From Escherichia phage vB_EcoS_MM-1, in the sequence record PV577657: a stretch of 64,000 nt of DNA. One strand, written 5' to 3'. A model generated the notes under the pieces. The model searched no databases. It was not told the DNA's origin and worked only from the letters and a program-made list of their open reading frames with translations. Shown one piece after another: positions 20,695 to 43,439 of the stretch. Numbering within the stretch: the first letter of the stretch is position 1; every line of letters begins with the position of its first letter. The position numbers and the translations under genes were made by a program.

Positions 20695-21108
20695 TTAAAC
20701 TAGTTCTACATGACCGCCATCATAGGTACCACGTTTTATTTCATCGTGATAGTCTCCCGAAGCATTCCAATCAGCACCAAAACGAAGTTTAATGCCTAGT
20801 TCTTTACCAGCTTGTTCAAAAGCCTTTTTAACTGCCCAAAATGCTTCTAAGTCATTCCAATCAATTTTGCCATTAATATATGGAGCAAAATCAATAGCAT
20901 CCCCAGTAATATGTTTGCTTTTACTAGGATCTTTTAGAAATGAAGTACCATTAGCAATGTTCTGGGCACTTTGTGCTACTGTACGAATACCTTGCACGAT
21001 TGTGAAATCATACGGAGATAATTCTAAAGCCCTACGAGCTACTTTTTGTAGTTCGGGCTTAACGGTTGCTAATTGTTTTTCGCTATTTTTACCAAATTTA
21101 AAACTCAT
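20695..21108 (-). CDS. lys: endolysin, L-alanyl-D-glutamate peptidase (M15 family)
   Basis: 137 aa; zinc-ligand pattern H...D...H ('DGGHVEL'); same length as T5 endolysin. Confidence 0.7.
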   Translation of the reverse strand: MSFKFGKNSEKQLATVKPELQKVARRALELSPYDFTIVQGIRTVAQSAQNIANGTSFLKDPSKSKHITGDAIDFAPYINGKIDWNDLEAFWAVKKAFEQAGKELGIKLRFGADWNASGDYHDEIKRGTYDGGHVELV

Positions 21109-21815
21109 ATTGACCTACCTAAAGATCTCTGTTGTGGAGAACAGAGCTTTGCTAAATATTCCTTGAACTGTTCAGAATCAGCTGTATCTACCGGATTATC
21201 TTTCCAAGCAATACCAATGTACCCAGCATAGATATTTTTTAGATTGAAGTATGGACAAGTGTATATGTAATTAAAAGTAACGTTTTTAAACGCAGGTATA
21301 TTTAACCCCATATATTTATTTACTTTTACACTTAAATCCGATGCGTAGTTAAAGCCCTCTAAATGACGTCTGTATAATTCAGACGTTTTATTTACCGCTT
21401 TATCGGCCAAGTCAGCCCTATCTAATTGCGCATTACTTTCCCATGCAATAATATTGGAATAATCATTGATAGCATCTGGTTTATACTTGACTACAAAAAC
21501 AGCATCTGCACCCGTCTGAGAGAAGAGAACCATGCTCTTTTCCCTCGCCACATTAGGGAAGTTATCTATCCTCTGGGTTTGTAAATCCTGTAAAACTGCA
21601 GACGTGGAAAAAGTCTTTAAGAATGACATCACTTCACTAGTATTACTAACAAATAAGAAAATAATGACAGCAACTAAGATAGTTAGCAGACGTTTAAGAA
21701 GCGATGCTGGGTCTTTCGCTTCTTGGAGCAGTACTGTTAATAATTGTAAGAACTTTTCCAATTTGTAACCTCCTCTAACCAGTACCATTATACTAATTTT
21801 GGAGGAAAATTTCAA
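21105..21815 (-). CDS. membrane protein, putative holin
   Basis: TM segment; sits immediately upstream of endolysin; start uncertain. Confidence 0.4.
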   Translation of the reverse strand: MKFSSKISIMVLVRGGYKLEKFLQLLTVLLQEAKDPASLLKRLLTILVAVIIFLFVSNTSEVMSFLKTFSTSAVLQDLQTQRIDNFPNVAREKSMVLFSQTGADAVFVVKYKPDAINDYSNIIAWESNAQLDRADLADKAVNKTSELYRRHLEGFNYASDLSVKVNKYMGLNIPAFKNVTFNYIYTCPYFNLKNIYAGYIGIAWKDNPVDTADSEQFKEYLAKLCSPQQRSLGRSI

Positions 21816-37969: not shown

Positions 37970-38803
37970 TTTAAGTATTTTTAAGAACTCTCGTAAAAAC
38001 TCTTAAAAATACAGACGATACCGGGAGAGTCATAAGTCTCACTCATTAAGTATTTCAAGACAAAATACAGTAACGTCTATTATTTTCCAGTTTAAGTCAG
38101 GGTGACTTAGTGGTTATGTCCTGCGGTATATTGAGGACTCGGTTAGGCTTGGGGTCATGACTTCCCACCTTTTGCTGCTACTCAACAGGAGTTATCGCGA
38201 ATTACCTGTGCTATTGTGCACCATTAGTGACATCTCTCATGTCAGCATTTCCCACTTTGTGGATAGCTTGAAAAACTACTCCGATATGGAGAAAGAACTT
38301 CACTATCCTAGAATACCTTCTAAAGTTCTTCTTTAGCCTGGACATAGTTAAATCGTAATAAAACTATTCAGCAGACTGGTTGGTTAGTCTGGAACCAACT
38401 ACCGCGTGGTTTAGGCAGTGCGCAACTAACCTCGGAAGCTTTTATGTTAAAAGCATCAGTTATCCAGTTCTTACCGACCGTAGGATTCGAACCTACATCT
38501 TCCACCAGTTACGGCTTGATAATACCAATTATACTAGGACGGCAGTGTTACTACATAAGTGATTTCCACACCCCACTATTTATAAATCAGAGAAGAGTTT
38601 AGGGGAGAGGTTTCAGACGCCTCATTTTACACGTTCTAGCCACTAACCGGGATTGCCGCCCCCTGTGTACTAGTTTTACAACTAACCCACCGACTCTATT
38701 CAATGCGCTCCGGTTGGGATTCTGCACTCAGCGTAATCGGCTCGCTGTTCCCTAATTTATGAATATATTATACAGAATTTATAAGCATTTAGCAAATGAA
38801 TTT

Positions 38804-39238
38804 TTAGAAAAATTCACTAGCAATCAAAGCAGTTGTTTTACCGTCATAACGTCCGGGAAATTCTGCCTTAATAGTTTTCATTAATAGAGCTTTGGTAATA
38901 CCTGGGTTTAATTTAACCAGTTCTGCAAAATACTCACGAATCTGAACCTCAGTCAGTTGACTTGGCTGATACTCTTGCAGCATGGAATAAAGCAGTTGCT
39001 CATAGTCTACATCAGTAGGAACTTCCATACCAACTTTAATAGCGCGTTGTTTTGCATTTTCTAGAGCCTTAATCTGAGCTTTCAGATAGGCTACGAACTC
39101 GGTTCGAGTAACAATGTCTTTATCAATACGTTGCAGATCACCAATCATGGTCTGAAGATTAAGTGCCCGTTCCTTATCACCGTGAGTACGTGCTAGACTA
39201 AGTAGTGCACGAAGGGTCATTAGAATATTTTCACCCAT
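38804..39238 (-). CDS. hypothetical protein
   Basis: 144 aa. Confidence 0.45.
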   Translation of the reverse strand: MGENILMTLRALLSLARTHGDKERALNLQTMIGDLQRIDKDIVTRTEFVAYLKAQIKALENAKQRAIKVGMEVPTDVDYEQLLYSMLQEYQPSQLTEVQIREYFAELVKLNPGITKALLMKTIKAEFPGRYDGKTTALIASEFF

Positions 39239-39408
39239 TATTTCATCCCCAATGCTTGGTTAAAAGATTGTTCTGTCATAACTGCTGAGACTTTGGCGAA
39301 ATCAAACTTTTTAGGGTTCGTAGTTATTTCAGCAACGTTAGAAGTTTTAACAGTTTTCGTAGTACGAATACCGCGAGTGTTAACACCAATAATTACAACT
39401 GATTTCAT
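39238..39408 (-). CDS. small basic protein
   Basis: 56-aa ORF after conserved leader; TAATG overlap with downstream gene. Confidence 0.4.
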   Translation of the reverse strand: MKSVVIIGVNTRGIRTTKTVKTSNVAEITTNPKKFDFAKVSAVMTEQSFNQALGMK

Positions 39409-39476
39409 ATTTCGCTTCCTCTCATTAATTTATGAAAGTATTATACAGAAATTTAAGTAGCTAAGCAAGTAAATTT

Positions 39477-39944
39477 TTAAGTTTTAGTGACAACAGGTTT
39501 ATAGAATGTATGTCCCTTAATCTTAGTTGTTTTCTTAAACTTCTTTGTCCAGTAAGGTTTATCTTTACCACTATGGAAGTATAGTGCTCCATATGTAGGA
39601 TCTTGTGGTAAATCAACGTAGTATATCACTCTAGCTAAATTCTTAGCGGTTTGCCAAGCCTCATCAGTTTTATCAACTTTTGGTCTCTTAGATACCCAAG
39701 AGAACTGGTTAGACTGATATACTACTTTACAGTAGGAATCTGGGAATTTACCGGAGTTTACACGGTTTTTAGTAACATGTGCAATCGCCGTCATTCCCTT
39801 TATGCCCTCACCACGACTTTCGAAATAGATATTTTTAGCAATGCAATCTATTTCTTTTGCATCGTGCGATGCCTGACTACTAAAGCTGAAGGTAAGGGCA
39901 GCTACTAAAAGCAAAGCTGCCTTCATTCTTTTTACTCCTGCCAA
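39477..39944 (-). CDS. secreted SleB-like cell-wall hydrolase
   Basis: signal peptide; 'AIAHVTKNRVNSGKFP', 'QFSWVS', 'GALYFH', 'PYW' match SleB/Hydrolase_2 pattern. Confidence 0.55.
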   Translation of the reverse strand: MAGVKRMKAALLLVAALTFSFSSQASHDAKEIDCIAKNIYFESRGEGIKGMTAIAHVTKNRVNSGKFPDSYCKVVYQSNQFSWVSKRPKVDKTDEAWQTAKNLARVIYYVDLPQDPTYGALYFHSGKDKPYWTKKFKKTTKIKGHTFYKPVVTKT

Positions 39945-40249
39945 TCATATTCAACACGATTGGGATTTTCTTTATACCCTAAGTCAAGCAAATCATTACG
40001 CATATTTTGCTTAGCTACTGGGTTCGAGGTTACTAGTACCACTTTCTTTGGTCTCTGCCCAAATTCTAAGAGTAAACGAAGAATTTGATAACCTTCCATA
40101 CCATCTACAGCCAAGTCATTATCCATATAAACGAAATGGCCGGTGGTATCAGTTTTATTCAGAAACTCTACAGCGGCTTCTGGGGTTCGAATGATAATGT
40201 CCATTCCGTGAAGATTACGCACATCATCAATCAAAATATGAAAAGTCAT
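39932..40249 (-). CDS. hypothetical protein, receiver-like fold possible
   Basis: 105 aa. Confidence 0.4.
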   Translation of the reverse strand: MTFHILIDDVRNLHGMDIIIRTPEAAVEFLNKTDTTGHFVYMDNDLAVDGMEGYQILRLLLEFGQRPKKVVLVTSNPVAKQNMRNDLLDLGYKENPNRVEYDWQE

Positions 40250-40691
40250 AATAGCCTCGTTTCATCAATTTAAAAATATATTATACAGATAACTTAGTAA
40301 ATTAGCAAATACATTTTTAAATTGTGAAACTAGTAAACCGATAAACAGCCTAGAGGCGCCACAGGCCATATCTTATGAGCCATGTACCTTTGATCTAGGG
40401 TTTGAATCATCAACGAATACTTTGCATCTTTTAGCTTTAGAAGTTTAGAAGTTTGAGTTCTTTAAACTTTTCAGCTTTCATACTTAAATGTTGATCTTTG
40501 AAGTTGTGTCGGTAATATCAACGACGCTTTGTTCTTACGTGTCAGCTTAAAAGGCTGGTGTAATAAACATAATCTCCAATAGATTATACTTTATAGTATG
40601 GTCAGCGGTCTTATTTAACCTCGTATTTCAACCGCTGCTGCGAGGTAAGATGCTTGGGCTTTCGTCTACCGATTTACTAGCTTTTAAATTA

Positions 40692-41330
40692 TTACTCTAC
40701 TTCAATGAAGGTAGAGGCGTTAGACTCGGACAGAACAAAATCAACATTTGTTGCAAAGTCCTGGTATTCCTCGTCATGCTGCTTAATCAGCTTCTCCAGT
40801 TCCAGCGGATCAATCAAGAATGGAGTATTCTTGAGTTCCAGCAGGTTGAGCTGCATTTTAACTTCATCTTCGGAAGTTTTCTTATCGCGGGTAGCCATGC
40901 TATCCTGCAAACGCTCATATTTAGCATCAAACTGTGCTTTCTGCGTATTAAACTTAACCGTGGCGGCATGGAACTGCTTACGCATGTTAGCCAGCAGTTG
41001 GGCTTTAAGTTCCATAGAACGCTTAGCTTCAATTGCTTCCGCAACAGTCATTTTACGAGAGCCTATCTCAACGATCGTTTCTGCATTGCTCTTAATCAGA
41101 GCAGCTTTGATACGATCACGCTGGGACATCATATCCAGCAGGGACTGGAAATCTGTCTTAATACGCTCAGATAAATCATCTACTTCGATTGCAGCGCCAA
41201 CTACAACCTTATTTTTATCCTTACCTTCACCAACAGCGATCAGAAGCTGTTGTTCAGTAGCTTTACGGATTTTAGCTTCCAGAGATTTGATAGTTGCCAG
41301 AGCGCGAGTTTTAGAGATACGAGTAGTCAT
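40692..41330 (-). CDS. coiled-coil protein
   Basis: 212 aa, heptad-rich. Confidence 0.5.
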   Translation of the reverse strand: MTTRISKTRALATIKSLEAKIRKATEQQLLIAVGEGKDKNKVVVGAAIEVDDLSERIKTDFQSLLDMMSQRDRIKAALIKSNAETIVEIGSRKMTVAEAIEAKRSMELKAQLLANMRKQFHAATVKFNTQKAQFDAKYERLQDSMATRDKKTSEDEVKMQLNLLELKNTPFLIDPLELEKLIKQHDEEYQDFATNVDFVLSESNASTFIEVE

Positions 41331-41636: not shown

Positions 41637-42338
41637 TCAAATTTTCATTTTTTCGATCATAGCTGCAACACAATAGCTCTCAACTAAGGCATCAAATGCT
41701 GGGTCGTGCTTAACCGGATAGATCCCATAACGAATGGTGTCCATCTTCTCCATTTTAGCTATTGCCCAGCTAATACCTTCGGTCTCTAGAGCTTTATAAC
41801 TGTATCCAGCTTGCATCCAGAGGTTACGAAGAGATCGAACATTACCCAAATTCCAGAATTTCCACGGAACTACCTCTTCATTGGTTCCAGCATGGAACGT
41901 GTTTGCAGAGTAGATAGTCATATCAAACTCTGGACCGTTTCCATAATACAAAGCATTTTCGCCTAAAGCCAACTCCATAATATTTTTAGCCATAGAGTAG
42001 GCAGCATAGTTAGAGCCGAGTTTATTAGTGCAATGATGTTTACCATTTTGGAAGGCAATCAGTTTTGGATTACGTTCCTTCATAGCTTCCATAATGTGGA
42101 TAGCAGACGGGCTATTTTTAGCTTGATCCATCCAGAATGCTAGAGTAGATGCTGTAACTTTGGCACCAGAATTAAGTTGATCTTGTACATCCAAAGTAAC
42201 AAATATTAGATCAGGGTCTTTATCAATTCCATGCATAGCCACAAAAGCGAAAGAAGGCATTGCGATATGAGTAGTACCACAATCTCCTGGAGTTCCCAGA
42301 GATTCAATATCTAGCATACCAAATGGTTTTACTTTCAT
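41637..42338 (-). CDS. DEDDh-type 3'-5' exonuclease-like protein
   Basis: 'MLDIESLG' (Exo I D-x-E), 'HDPAFD' (H-x4-D). Confidence 0.5.
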   Translation of the reverse strand: MKVKPFGMLDIESLGTPGDCGTTHIAMPSFAFVAMHGIDKDPDLIFVTLDVQDQLNSGAKVTASTLAFWMDQAKNSPSAIHIMEAMKERNPKLIAFQNGKHHCTNKLGSNYAAYSMAKNIMELALGENALYYGNGPEFDMTIYSANTFHAGTNEEVVPWKFWNLGNVRSLRNLWMQAGYSYKALETEGISWAIAKMEKMDTIRYGIYPVKHDPAFDALVESYCVAAMIEKMKI

Positions 42339-42366
42339 AACTTATCCTTTATTGTGTAGAAAACTA

Positions 42367-42603
42367 TTAAAGAGACAGCTCTTTAATAGACTCCCACTTC
42401 TTGGGGTCTTTAAAACCAGGAAGCATATCCTCACTGACATCCCAGTTCTCTTCCATAGAGAAGTCGGGCCACTCATTCCAGCTACCTTCCAGCTCTTCAT
42501 AACAGGTATCCATTACCTCATGACTAGAAAGTCGTGTATAATCTCTAGCGGACTTATGAGTGCTAGCACGGTTAAAATCATTCTTTGCTACAAAATTACG
42601 CAT
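42367..42603 (-). CDS. hypothetical acidic protein
   Basis: 78 aa. Confidence 0.4.
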   Translation of the reverse strand: MRNFVAKNDFNRASTHKSARDYTRLSSHEVMDTCYEELEGSWNEWPDFSMEENWDVSEDMLPGFKDPKKWESIKELSL

Positions 42604-42644
42604 AGTTTCTCCAAATAAGAGGGGCTTTCGCCCCCTGATTTAAA

Positions 42645-42860
42645 TCATTTGCCCAGCAGTTTAAGGATATTTTCCATAATAGTTTGGGCAGATTTTTCAC
42701 TCTTGTTGGTTTCAGTCAACTTTAAAGCGAGTTCTTCCTGCTGTTTCTGAATATCAGCAGCGATTTTTTGATCAGCCTCAATACGAGCTTGAAGCTCATC
42801 AGTGATAGTGGTAAAGGAAGCAACGATTTCAGTAACGGAACGTGGTTTCTTAGAGAACAT
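42645..42860 (-). CDS. hypothetical protein
   Basis: 71 aa; hairpin downstream. Confidence 0.4.
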   Translation of the reverse strand: MFSKKPRSVTEIVASFTTITDELQARIEADQKIAADIQKQQEELALKLTETNKSEKSAQTIMENILKLLGK

Positions 42861-42923: not shown

Positions 42924-43439
42924 TTACTTCGCTTTACGTTTGCGAGCTGGTTTAGCAGATTTACGAGCGGAATCACCCGTGAACTTAATGCCTACGCCGT
43001 AACACAGAGCACGAACATTATCTTTACTATACTCTACGCCAAAGATATTTGGCTTAACAGAACCAAACTGTCCACGAGTATCACGCAATACATCTGCTGT
43101 TGGTTTACGCTTCTGGTTAACTGCCTTCTCATAGTCTTTCATAGACATACCATTACGAGAGAACAATTCAGCCCCAGCGTTGAAGCTCAGGGAAACTGGG
43201 ACAGATTTGTGGCCGTAATTTTCTACATACATAACCATTTTGTAGGATTTACGGGTGGCATTTTTAGCTTTAGGCTTCTGACGAATCGGAGCCGGATTAT
43301 TCAGTGCTTGCGCAGCCTGAGCATCAGTAGGATGCTTACGCAGGTGACGTTCCAGACGAGCTTTGCGATTAGCCTCAGTCTTCGGGAAAGTTTTAACTGC
43401 CGGAGCTGCTTGAGTTTTTGCGTTTTTCTGCTTAGCCAT
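42924..43439 (-). CDS. basic protein, possibly nucleic-acid binding
   Basis: 171 aa, Lys/Arg-rich termini. Confidence 0.5.
   Translation of the reverse strand: MAKQKNAKTQAAPAVKTFPKTEANRKARLERHLRKHPTDAQAAQALNNPAPIRQKPKAKNATRKSYKMVMYVENYGHKSVPVSLSFNAGAELFSRNGMSMKDYEKAVNQKRKPTADVLRDTRGQFGSVKPNIFGVEYSKDNVRALCYGVGIKFTGDSARKSAKPARKRKAK

What the first reader, a model, noticed from the sequence alone, without database searches (positions are those of the whole stretch)
39477..39944. Secreted SleB-like cell-wall hydrolase encoded apart from the lysis cassette
This signal-peptide-bearing peptidoglycan hydrolase-like protein is encoded about 19 kb from the endolysin/holin genes, under its own early promoter. 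It could act in superinfection exclusion, wall remodelling or as an auxiliary lysin.
Basis: partly seen in the sequence, partly recalled or inferred. Interest (0 to 1): 0.35.

Follow-up and report, generated by a model that had tools for sequence, protein, structure and literature searches.

The report
T5 exported SleB-like wall hydrolase (T5.083)
This is the already-annotated T5-phage gene T5.083, a small exported enzyme of the SleB/CwlJ cell-wall-cutting family that sits far from the phage's lysis genes; it is real, conserved and probably an accessory wall-degrading enzyme, but it is ordinary and already noted in the literature.

Summary
The window is a T5-like phage (Tequintavirus). It has a canonical Sec-type signal peptide (residues 1-19, SQA|SH) and a full-length Hydrolase_2 (PF07486) domain. 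The predicted fold matches Bacillus SleB, and the catalytic Glu (E36) is retained. The endolysin and holin lie at 20695-21815, 18.4 kb away.

"Its own early promoter" is only partly right. The gene starts 5 nt after the stop of a cREC_REC gene (T5.084 ortholog), and the only good sigma-70 promoter (40308-40280) lies upstream of that gene.

The protein is not a true SleB. It lacks the peptidoglycan-binding domain and scores far below the SleB equivalog cut-off.

It is as widespread among T5-like phages as the endolysin and is under purifying selection (dN/dS about 0.1). A published CRISPRi-ART screen of T5 scored it "Not Fit". An invariant cysteine pair suggests a periplasmic disulfide.

Several papers already note this second, holin-distant "cell wall hydrolase". 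I found no biochemical study. The most likely role is an accessory periplasmic lytic transglycosylase. Already known; low interest.

The parts
39477..39926 (-). CDS for a 149-aa exported SleB/CwlJ-like hydrolase, ortholog of T5.083 (ATG 39926, stop 39477-39479)
   Evidence: ORF. Pfam PF07486 E=3.4e-25. Same boundaries in PV577658, LR597659 and NC_005859 T5.083. dN/dS 0.10-0.14 between diverged orthologs.
39870..39926 (-). Signal peptide, residues 1-19 (MKAALLLVAALTFSFSSQA | SH)
   Evidence: Manual n/h/c analysis: best 10-residue Kyte-Doolittle mean 2.69, no Gly, small residues at -3 and -1. The pattern is kept across 32 homologues although the sequence varies. No lipobox is present.
39501..39812 (-). 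Hydrolase_2 (PF07486) match, residues 39-142; the structural domain spans about residues 22-144
   Evidence: Foldseek to SleB 4fet_B: TMt 0.79, rmsd 2.4 A.
39819..39821 (-). Codon GAA for Glu36 in the YFESRGE motif, the predicted catalytic acid/base
   Evidence: It aligns to the first Glu of SleB YGESRGE, at chain position 26 of 4f55 and 120 of 4fet. By my recollection these are Glu157 and Glu151. It is invariant in 32 and in 8 homologues.
39843..39845 (-). Codon for Cys28, first half of the inferred disulfide pair
   Evidence: Invariant in 32 clade members. Replaced together with Cys66 in rV5, CR8, PAK_P2 and Bacillus SleB.
39729..39731 (-). Codon for Cys66, second half of the inferred disulfide pair
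   Evidence: Same evidence as for Cys28.
39935..39939 (-). Shine-Dalgarno AGGAG, 8 nt upstream of the ATG; it lies inside the end of the upstream gene and abuts its TAA stop codon (39934-39932)
   Evidence: Read directly from the sequence.
39932..40249 (-). Upstream co-oriented gene (105 aa, cREC_REC PF20274; T5.084 ortholog), probably co-transcribed with the hydrolase gene
   Evidence: Pfam E=3.8e-15. Its stop is 5 nt before the hydrolase ATG. The neighbour is not fixed: an HNH endonuclease in Kenya-K38 and a metallopeptidase in Sugarland.
40280..40308 (-). Sigma-70 promoter-like site TTGCTA-17-TATAAT with an AT-rich upstream stretch; likely promoter of the two-gene unit
   Evidence: 10/12 match. 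It is nearly invariant in four phages. It corresponds to the promoter annotated at 43067-43141 in NC_005859. Function is not shown here.
20695..21108 (-). Canonical T5 endolysin (137 aa, M15-type peptidase), given for reference
   Evidence: Pfam Peptidase_M15_4/VanY. 100% identical to T5 lys in AY509815.
21105..21815 (-). T-type holin (Phage_holin_T), given for reference; the true start is probably downstream of the listed TTG
   Evidence: Pfam E=7.7e-113, residues 21-235.

Best explanation
The gene is the T5.083 ortholog of a T5-like phage. Its product is made with a cleavable Sec signal peptide and exported to the periplasm. There it folds as a 130-residue, basic (pI about 9.7), single-domain enzyme of the SleB/CwlJ (Hydrolase_2) fold, probably stapled by a Cys28-Cys66 disulfide. 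By homology it would use Glu36 as the single catalytic acid/base of a lytic transglycosylase and cut the glycan strands of host peptidoglycan. It is transcribed with the upstream cREC_REC gene from a host-type sigma-70 promoter in the T5 early region. Its most likely role is an accessory muralytic enzyme. It would weaken or help dismantle the sacculus, complementing the holin-dependent endolysin, which cuts peptide stems (L-alanoyl-D-glutamate peptidase). It is not required for plaque formation on laboratory E. coli. Shown here: gene, domain, fold, catalytic residue, signal-peptide pattern, operon layout, conservation and purifying selection. Inferred: export, disulfide, bond specificity, timing and biological role.
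For: Domain and fold. The catalytic Glu is retained and invariant. The signal-peptide architecture is conserved in 32 homologues down to 32% identity although its sequence varies. The Cys28/Cys66 pair is invariant in the clade, and both are absent together in outgroups that carry other even-numbered Cys sets. dN/dS is 0.10-0.14. The gene occurs in about as many T5-like genomes as the endolysin: 435 versus 412 records at >=80% identity. Operon layout and promoter. T5.083 knock-down was 'Not Fit' in CRISPRi-ART. A signal-peptide-bearing homologue in Certrevirus phage CB7 was reported toxic when expressed in E. coli. Hydrolase_2 is a common catalytic domain of lysins from phages of Gram-negative hosts.
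Against: No enzymatic activity has been shown for this protein or any close relative; I found no such study. Bacillus SleB needs muramic-delta-lactam, which E. coli peptidoglycan lacks. Residues Gln74 and Trp77 are invariant here but differ in SleB, so specificity may differ. An active wall hydrolase exported from an early transcript should risk premature lysis, and nothing seen here explains how that is avoided. 'Not Fit' in one screen with admitted low recall for T5 does not prove dispensability. The strong conservation argues for a real selective benefit that 'redundant lysin' does not explain. Export was judged by hand, not with SignalP or by experiment.
Confidence: 0.55

Rival explanations
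1. It is a second, holin-independent endolysin in the strict sense. It is exported early through Sec, held inactive in the energised envelope, and activated when the holin collapses the membrane potential. This is how Sec-exported Lys44 of Oenococcus phage fOg44 and the SAR endolysins work.
For: It has an N-terminal export signal. Databases and several genome papers call it an endolysin. In Certrevirus phages a homologue overlaps a candidate class II holin and was linked to lysis.
Against: The N-terminus looks like a cleavable signal peptide, not a SAR anchor. The hydrophobic core is 13 residues with no Gly, followed by an A-x-A site. No holin or pinholin gene lies beside it here or beside distant homologues. 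Knock-down gave no fitness defect. T5 already has a complete endolysin/holin pair.
Confidence: 0.2
2. It has a non-lytic early role in the periplasm. It could locally remodel peptidoglycan, for instance to make room for a phage-induced envelope structure, alter the entry of superinfecting phages, or generate anhydromuropeptides. Lysis would not be its purpose.
For: It lies in the early region, among nucleotide-metabolism and replication genes rather than with lysis genes. This holds here and in distant homologues on unrelated phage contigs. Strong conservation and purifying selection persist despite apparent dispensability in the laboratory.
Against: No partner gene is conserved next to it: the neighbours are cREC_REC, HNH endonuclease or metallopeptidase. 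No phenotype is known. T5's own lysis cassette is also in the early region (record AY509815 'early C-region'), so position alone does not separate lytic from non-lytic roles.
Confidence: 0.15
3. It is catalytically inactive on host peptidoglycan and serves as a peptidoglycan-binding protein or an evolutionary leftover.
For: There are no activity data. SleB substrate specificity depends on muramic-delta-lactam (established knowledge of the family). Truncated copies exist in a few relatives: 72 aa in EPS7, and 96-102 aa proteins P0029 and P0032.
Against: The catalytic Glu and the core motif Y-x-E-x-R-G-E are invariant. dN/dS is about 0.1. The gene is present in essentially all T5-like genomes. 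A homologue is toxic in E. coli.
Confidence: 0.1

Closest known systems
T5.083 of Escherichia phage T5 (NC_005859 42290-42739) and its orthologs across Demerecviridae, annotated 'cell wall hydrolase SleB', 'spore cortex-lytic enzyme precursor' or 'endolysin'
   Same: It is the same gene. The window protein is 100% identical to those of several published phages and about 97% identical to T5's (5 of 149 residues differ). Length, position and neighbours (T5.084 upstream, T5.082/T5.081 downstream) are the same.
   Different: Nothing of substance differs. There are five substitutions relative to T5 itself.
Bacillus SleB (PDB 4F55, 4FET) and CwlJ, germination-specific cortex-lytic enzymes (lytic transglycosylase)
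   Same: The catalytic domain fold matches (TM 0.71-0.79, 28-31% identity). The catalytic Glu and the YxESRGE motif are conserved. SleB also has a signal peptide, and CwlJ is likewise a single domain.
   Different: The phage protein has no N-terminal PG_binding domain. It scores 50 bits against the 236.5-bit cut-off of the SleB equivalog model, matching only the catalytic half. Its Cys28/Cys66 pair and the invariant Gln74 and Trp77 are absent from SleB. The host has no spore cortex or muramic-delta-lactam.
Signal-peptide-bearing SleB-like proteins of Vequintavirinae (rV5 gp002, CR8_090, CB7_83, CR3_087)
   Same: They are 33-46% identical and have an N-terminal signal peptide plus a single Hydrolase_2 domain. 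They occur in phages that also carry another endolysin candidate, and they sit outside a classic lysis cassette.
   Different: Their cysteine pair is placed differently: both Cys lie N-terminal to the catalytic helix, and both Cys28 and Cys66 are replaced. They have a longer linker after the signal peptide. In Certrevirus a candidate holin gene overlaps the hydrolase gene.
Sec-exported and SAR endolysins (Lys44 of phage fOg44; P1 Lyz, phage 21 R)
   Same: These are muralytic enzymes that reach the wall through the host Sec system rather than through holin holes (established knowledge; for the frequency of signal peptides in lysins of Gram-negative phages).
   Different: They belong to different catalytic families. 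SAR domains are uncleaved, Gly/Ala-rich and about 20 residues long. Here the core is short, Leu/Phe-rich and followed by an A-x-A site. Those enzymes are the phage's main endolysin and sit next to a holin or pinholin, which this one does not.

Membership tests
Pfam Hydrolase_2 (PF07486) / SleB-CwlJ catalytic domain superfamily | Profile match above the gathering score over the whole domain | tested here: met
   89 bits against a cut-off of 27, E=3.4e-25, profile positions 1-100 of 100.
Pfam Hydrolase_2 (PF07486) / SleB-CwlJ catalytic domain superfamily | SleB catalytic-domain fold | tested here: met
   AF2 model with pLDDT 89.9. Foldseek matches to 4fet_B, 4fet_A and 4f55 have probability 1.00, TMt 0.71-0.79 and rmsd 2.4-2.9 A. 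The next PDB hit has E=2.
Pfam Hydrolase_2 (PF07486) / SleB-CwlJ catalytic domain superfamily | Catalytic glutamate in the Y-x-E-S/A-R-G-E motif | tested here: met
   Glu36 aligns with the first Glu of SleB YGESRGE and is invariant in homologues. Its identity as Glu157/Glu151 rests on my recollection of Li 2012 and Jing 2012, which could not be opened. That a catalytic Glu is essential is stated in PMC12331253.
Pfam Hydrolase_2 (PF07486) / SleB-CwlJ catalytic domain superfamily | Peptidoglycan-cleaving (lytic transglycosylase) activity | not testable with these tools
   This needs a zymogram or muropeptide analysis. No published assay was found for this clade.
SleB proper (NCBIfam TIGR02869 spore_SleB, equivalog) | Score above the curated equivalog cut-off | tested here: not met
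   50.4 bits against a cut-off of 236.5.
SleB proper (NCBIfam TIGR02869 spore_SleB, equivalog) | N-terminal peptidoglycan-binding domain preceding the catalytic domain | tested here: not met
   Only profile positions 79-201 are matched. The mature protein is 130 aa, a single domain, with no other Pfam hit.
SleB proper (NCBIfam TIGR02869 spore_SleB, equivalog) | Acts on muramic-delta-lactam-containing spore cortex | not testable with these tools
   The hosts (E. coli, Salmonella) make no spores, so this role is excluded on biological grounds.
Sec-dependent secreted protein with a cleavable (SPase I) signal peptide | Positively charged n-region, 7-15-residue hydrophobic h-region, and c-region with small residues at -3 and -1 | tested here: met
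   Lys2; A3-F15; S17-Q18-A19|S20. The pattern recurs in most of 32 homologues. This is a manual rule-based analysis; SignalP was not available.
SAR (signal-arrest-release) endolysin | Uncleaved, weakly hydrophobic, Gly/Ala/Ser-rich N-terminal domain of about 16-20 residues and a partner pinholin | tested here: not met
   There is no Gly in the hydrophobic run, which is a Leu/Val/Phe-rich core followed by a good A-x-A site. No holin-like neighbour is present.
Canonical phage endolysin of a lysis cassette | Encoded next to the holin or spanin genes and dependent on the holin for access to the wall | tested here: not met
   The holin and endolysin are at 20695-21815, 18.4 kb away. The neighbours here are cREC_REC, DUF7616 and YqeY-like genes.
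Lipoprotein (for example o-spanin or Llp-like) | Lipobox L-x-x-C at the end of the signal peptide | tested here: not met
   The first Cys is at residue 28 in the context EIDC, after charged residues.

The most novel reading that the evidence does not exclude
The T5.083 clade may be a phage-specific lineage of Sec-exported, disulfide-stapled SleB-fold lytic transglycosylases whose purpose is not host lysis. It recurs among early and nucleotide-metabolism genes of unrelated large virulent phages and is never linked to a holin. It would act early in the periplasm, for example to remodel the sacculus, to interfere with competing phages, or to prime very rapid wall collapse. That would explain why it is kept under strong purifying selection although it is dispensable in laboratory screens.
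Probability: 0.15. Interest if true: 0.5.

Novelty: already known. Interest (0 to 1): 0.2.

Why it matters
It matters little for discovery. The gene is annotated in T5 and in hundreds of relatives, and several papers have remarked on its distance from the holin. The open point is functional. Nobody appears to have shown what an exported, early-region SleB-fold enzyme does in a phage that already has a complete endolysin/holin pair, or how premature lysis is avoided. The protein is small, basic and naturally targeted at Gram-negative peptidoglycan, so it could interest enzybiotic work. The invariant Cys pair and the phage-specific residues (Gln74, Trp77) are simple handles for asking how the SleB fold was adapted from spore cortex to ordinary peptidoglycan.

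Tried and rejected
- **TTG 39944 as start:** rejected. It has no Shine-Dalgarno sequence and overlaps the upstream gene. ATG 39926 has AGGAG at an 8-nt spacing and matches all annotations.
- **Own promoter between the cREC_REC gene and the hydrolase gene:** rejected. The gap is 5 nt. Weak 9/12 matches inside the upstream CDS are no more frequent than in shuffles.
- **SAR endolysin and lipoprotein readings:** rejected on N-terminal composition.
- **Virion-associated lysin:** rejected by inference. A Sec-exported protein would not be packaged in the cytoplasm, and there is no structural-gene context.
- **True SleB ortholog:** rejected.
- **Bacterial origin of close homologues:** the 'Salmonella enterica' entries sit on 113-114 kb contigs, which look like T5-size phage genomes. 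All four distant homologues examined lie in phage-like gene neighbourhoods.
- **Functional link to cREC_REC:** not supported, because the neighbour varies.
- **Literature:** ten full-text searches found annotation-level mentions only. There was no hit for 'T5.083' in main texts.
- **SleB structure papers:** the two papers could not be opened.
- **Cys28-Cys66 proximity:** I could not measure the distance because model coordinates are not returned.
- **Rfam scan of 38200-41000:** it gave only a tRNA-like hit and sub-threshold noise.

Full report
**What the window is.** The 4 kb around the finding is 100% identical to Escherichia phage vB_EcoS_MM-2. It is 98-99% identical to many other Tequintavirus genomes of the T5 family (Demerecviridae). 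The annotations of three such records were read. In the T5 reference NC_005859 the gene is T5.083 (42290-42739, minus strand). There it is called 'endolysin'; other records call it 'SleB putative cell wall hydrolase', 'spore cortex-lytic enzyme precursor' or 'cell wall hydrolase'.

**The observation.** The listed ORF 39477..39944(-) begins at a TTG that overlaps the end of the upstream gene.
- Reading the minus strand shows AGGAG at 39939-39935. The TAA stop of the upstream gene follows at 39934-39932, and an ATG sits at 39926.
- The real gene is therefore 39477-39926: 149 codons plus stop, as in every annotated ortholog.
- The product matches Pfam Hydrolase_2 (PF07486) over the whole profile at E=3.4e-25 and PHROG 938 'endolysin' at 1.2e-29.
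- By sequence it finds only the two SleB catalytic-domain crystal structures in the PDB, 4F55 and 4FET, at E about 1e-8.
- An AlphaFold2 model built on 32 homologues has mean pLDDT 89.9. Foldseek retrieves the same SleB structures with TM 0.71-0.79 and rmsd 2.4-2.9 A, and nothing else is significant.
- Among predicted viral structures it matches dozens of phage 'SleB cell wall hydrolases'.
- The first Glu of SleB's YGESRGE aligns with Glu36 of YFESRGE. The chain offsets fit the catalytic Glu157 (B. cereus) and Glu151 (B. anthracis) as I recall them. A 2025 paper confirms that a catalytic glutamate is essential for SleB's lytic transglycosylase activity.

**Signal peptide.** No predictor was available, so I applied the classical rules in a script.
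- The N-terminus has Lys2, then an uncharged hydrophobic core A3-F15 (best 10-residue Kyte-Doolittle mean 2.69, no Gly), then S17-Q18-A19|S20.
- The same n/h/c architecture recurs in most of 32 homologues that fall to 32% identity. An A-x-A-like site lies 8-9 residues before an invariant cysteine, although the h-region sequence itself is not conserved.
- This is what a functional, cleavable Sec signal looks like. It is not what a SAR domain or a lipoprotein signal looks like.

**Cysteine pair.**
- Cys28 and Cys66 are invariant in all 32 clade members.
- Both are replaced together in Bacillus SleB (Leu and Ser) and in rV5 gp002, CR8_090 and PAK_P2 gp155.
- Those three also have N-terminal hydrophobic leaders, and each carries a different even-numbered set of cysteines.
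- I infer a periplasmic disulfide. I could not measure the distance in the model.

**Distance from the lysis genes.** The T5 endolysin lies at 20695-21108(-): 137 aa, M15-type, 100% identical to T5 lys. The T-type holin lies at 21105-21815(-). The gap to the hydrolase gene is 18.4 kb, so 'about 19 kb' is right.

**Promoter claim.**
- The hydrolase ATG follows the stop of a 105-aa gene by 5 nt. That gene encodes a cREC_REC domain protein (PF20274, E=3.8e-15; T5.084 ortholog).
- The only strong sigma-70 match is TTGCTA-17-TATAAT at 40308-40280, upstream of that gene.
- NC_005859 annotates a promoter at the same place, and another one (P-D/E 33) just downstream of T5.083 for the next genes.
- The promoter hexamers are almost invariant in four phages.
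- The hydrolase gene is therefore the distal gene of a two-gene unit, not a gene with its own promoter.
- Promoter-like hits overall are not enriched over shuffles, so this assignment rests on position, conservation and the reference annotation.
- The neighbour is not obligatory. It is an HNH endonuclease in Kenya-K38 and a metallopeptidase in Klebsiella phage Sugarland.

**Is it maintained?**
- tblastn finds the protein at >=80% identity in 435 phage records, against 412 for the T5 endolysin. It is effectively a core gene of T5-like phages.
- Pairwise dN/dS between diverged orthologs is 0.10-0.14.
- More distant homologues (35-48% identity) lie on phage-like metagenomic contigs among RNase H, UvdE, Thy1, Metallophos, dGTP diphosphohydrolase and ribonucleotide reductase genes. 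None lies next to a recognisable holin.

**Membership.**
- It is a member of the Hydrolase_2 domain family: score, fold and catalytic residue are all met.
- It is not SleB itself. The NCBIfam equivalog model TIGR02869 gives 50 bits against a cut-off of 236.5 and matches only the catalytic half. There is no peptidoglycan-binding domain.
- In architecture it resembles CwlJ (a single domain) with a signal peptide added.

**What is known already.**
- Niu et al. 2012 list 'cell wall hydrolase SleB (ORF81)' beside lysozyme and holin in the early region of T5-like phage AKFV33.
- Guzel et al. 2024 explicitly describe Tequintavirus 'endolysins far from holin' with a SleB domain and ask which one the phage uses.
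- A 2025 paper counts it as one of three endolysins.
- The Certrevirus CB7 paper reports a signal peptide on the homologue CB7_83 and toxicity on expression in E. coli, with data not shown.
- Vazquez et al. 2021 list Hydrolase_2 among the catalytic domains typical of lysins from phages of Gram-negative hosts, and find signal peptides in 28% of such lysins.
- In the CRISPRi-ART transcriptome-wide screen of T5, T5.083 was 'Not Fit'. The authors warn of limited recall for T5.
- I found no enzymology, localisation or knockout study of this protein.

**Mechanism.** I judge the best-supported reading to be an exported, periplasmic, single-domain lytic transglycosylase that acts as an accessory muralytic enzyme. 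Cutting glycan strands would complement the peptide-stem-cutting main endolysin.
- Shown here: the gene, its fold, its catalytic residue, the signal-peptide pattern, the operon layout and its conservation.
- Inferred: export, the disulfide, bond specificity, timing and role.
- The main unresolved difficulty is how an exported hydrolase made from an early-region promoter avoids premature lysis. A second is why a gene that seems dispensable is so well conserved. This leaves room for a non-lytic periplasmic role (about 15%).

**Verdict.** The feature is already known at the annotation level and is of low interest.

Noticed in passing
window 40370-40691 (minus-strand sense), between the T5.085-like CDS and the promoter of the cREC_REC/hydrolase unit: This roughly 320-bp stretch has no annotated function in T5, yet it is more conserved than the genes around it. 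It is 93.5-94.7% identical between this Tequintavirus and two Epseptimavirus phages, against 85-89% for the flanking CDSs. Folded as RNA it gives z = -2.9 against shuffles. It has no Rfam match. It could be a structured RNA or a regulatory or replication element.
   Followed up: partly
window 39932-40249 (-): The upstream gene encodes a stand-alone cREC_REC domain (cyclic-phosphate-processing receiver, PF20274; T5.084 ortholog). The supplementary text of the CRISPRi-ART paper lists T5.084 among five 'Fit' genes of unknown function, while a supplementary table scores it 'Not Fit'.
   Followed up: partly
L011 (Salmonella phage Kenya-K38) 367-1650, compared with window 39477-40249: In Kenya-K38 an HNH endonuclease gene replaces the cREC_REC gene upstream of the hydrolase. 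The hydrolase itself carries a short mosaic patch (residues 56-64, LKDKKFPST) that resembles a more distant homologue, P0025. This looks like homing-endonuclease-associated recombination.
   Followed up: no
window 38472-38543 (-), within about 37970-38690: Rfam gives a tRNA-like match (35.5 bits) that ARAGORN does not call; one record annotates it as 'tRNA-OTHER'. It lies in the stretch that corresponds to T5 'RNAX', annotated in NC_005859 as a stable RNA of unknown function.
   Followed up: partly
window 40692-41330 (-) and 40650-41174 (+): The 212-aa T5.085 ortholog is annotated 'tail fiber protein' in several records, although it sits in the early region and has no Pfam hit. PV577658 instead annotates an antisense 174-aa ORF and a 34-aa ORF across the promoter. 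All three annotations look doubtful.
   Followed up: no
window 39414-39488 (-): The 3' end of the hydrolase gene overlaps the position of T5 promoter P-D/E 33, which drives the next genes (DUF7616 and a YqeY-like 'tRNA amidotransferase'). No terminator-like hairpin follows the hydrolase gene, so read-through transcription is likely.
   Followed up: no
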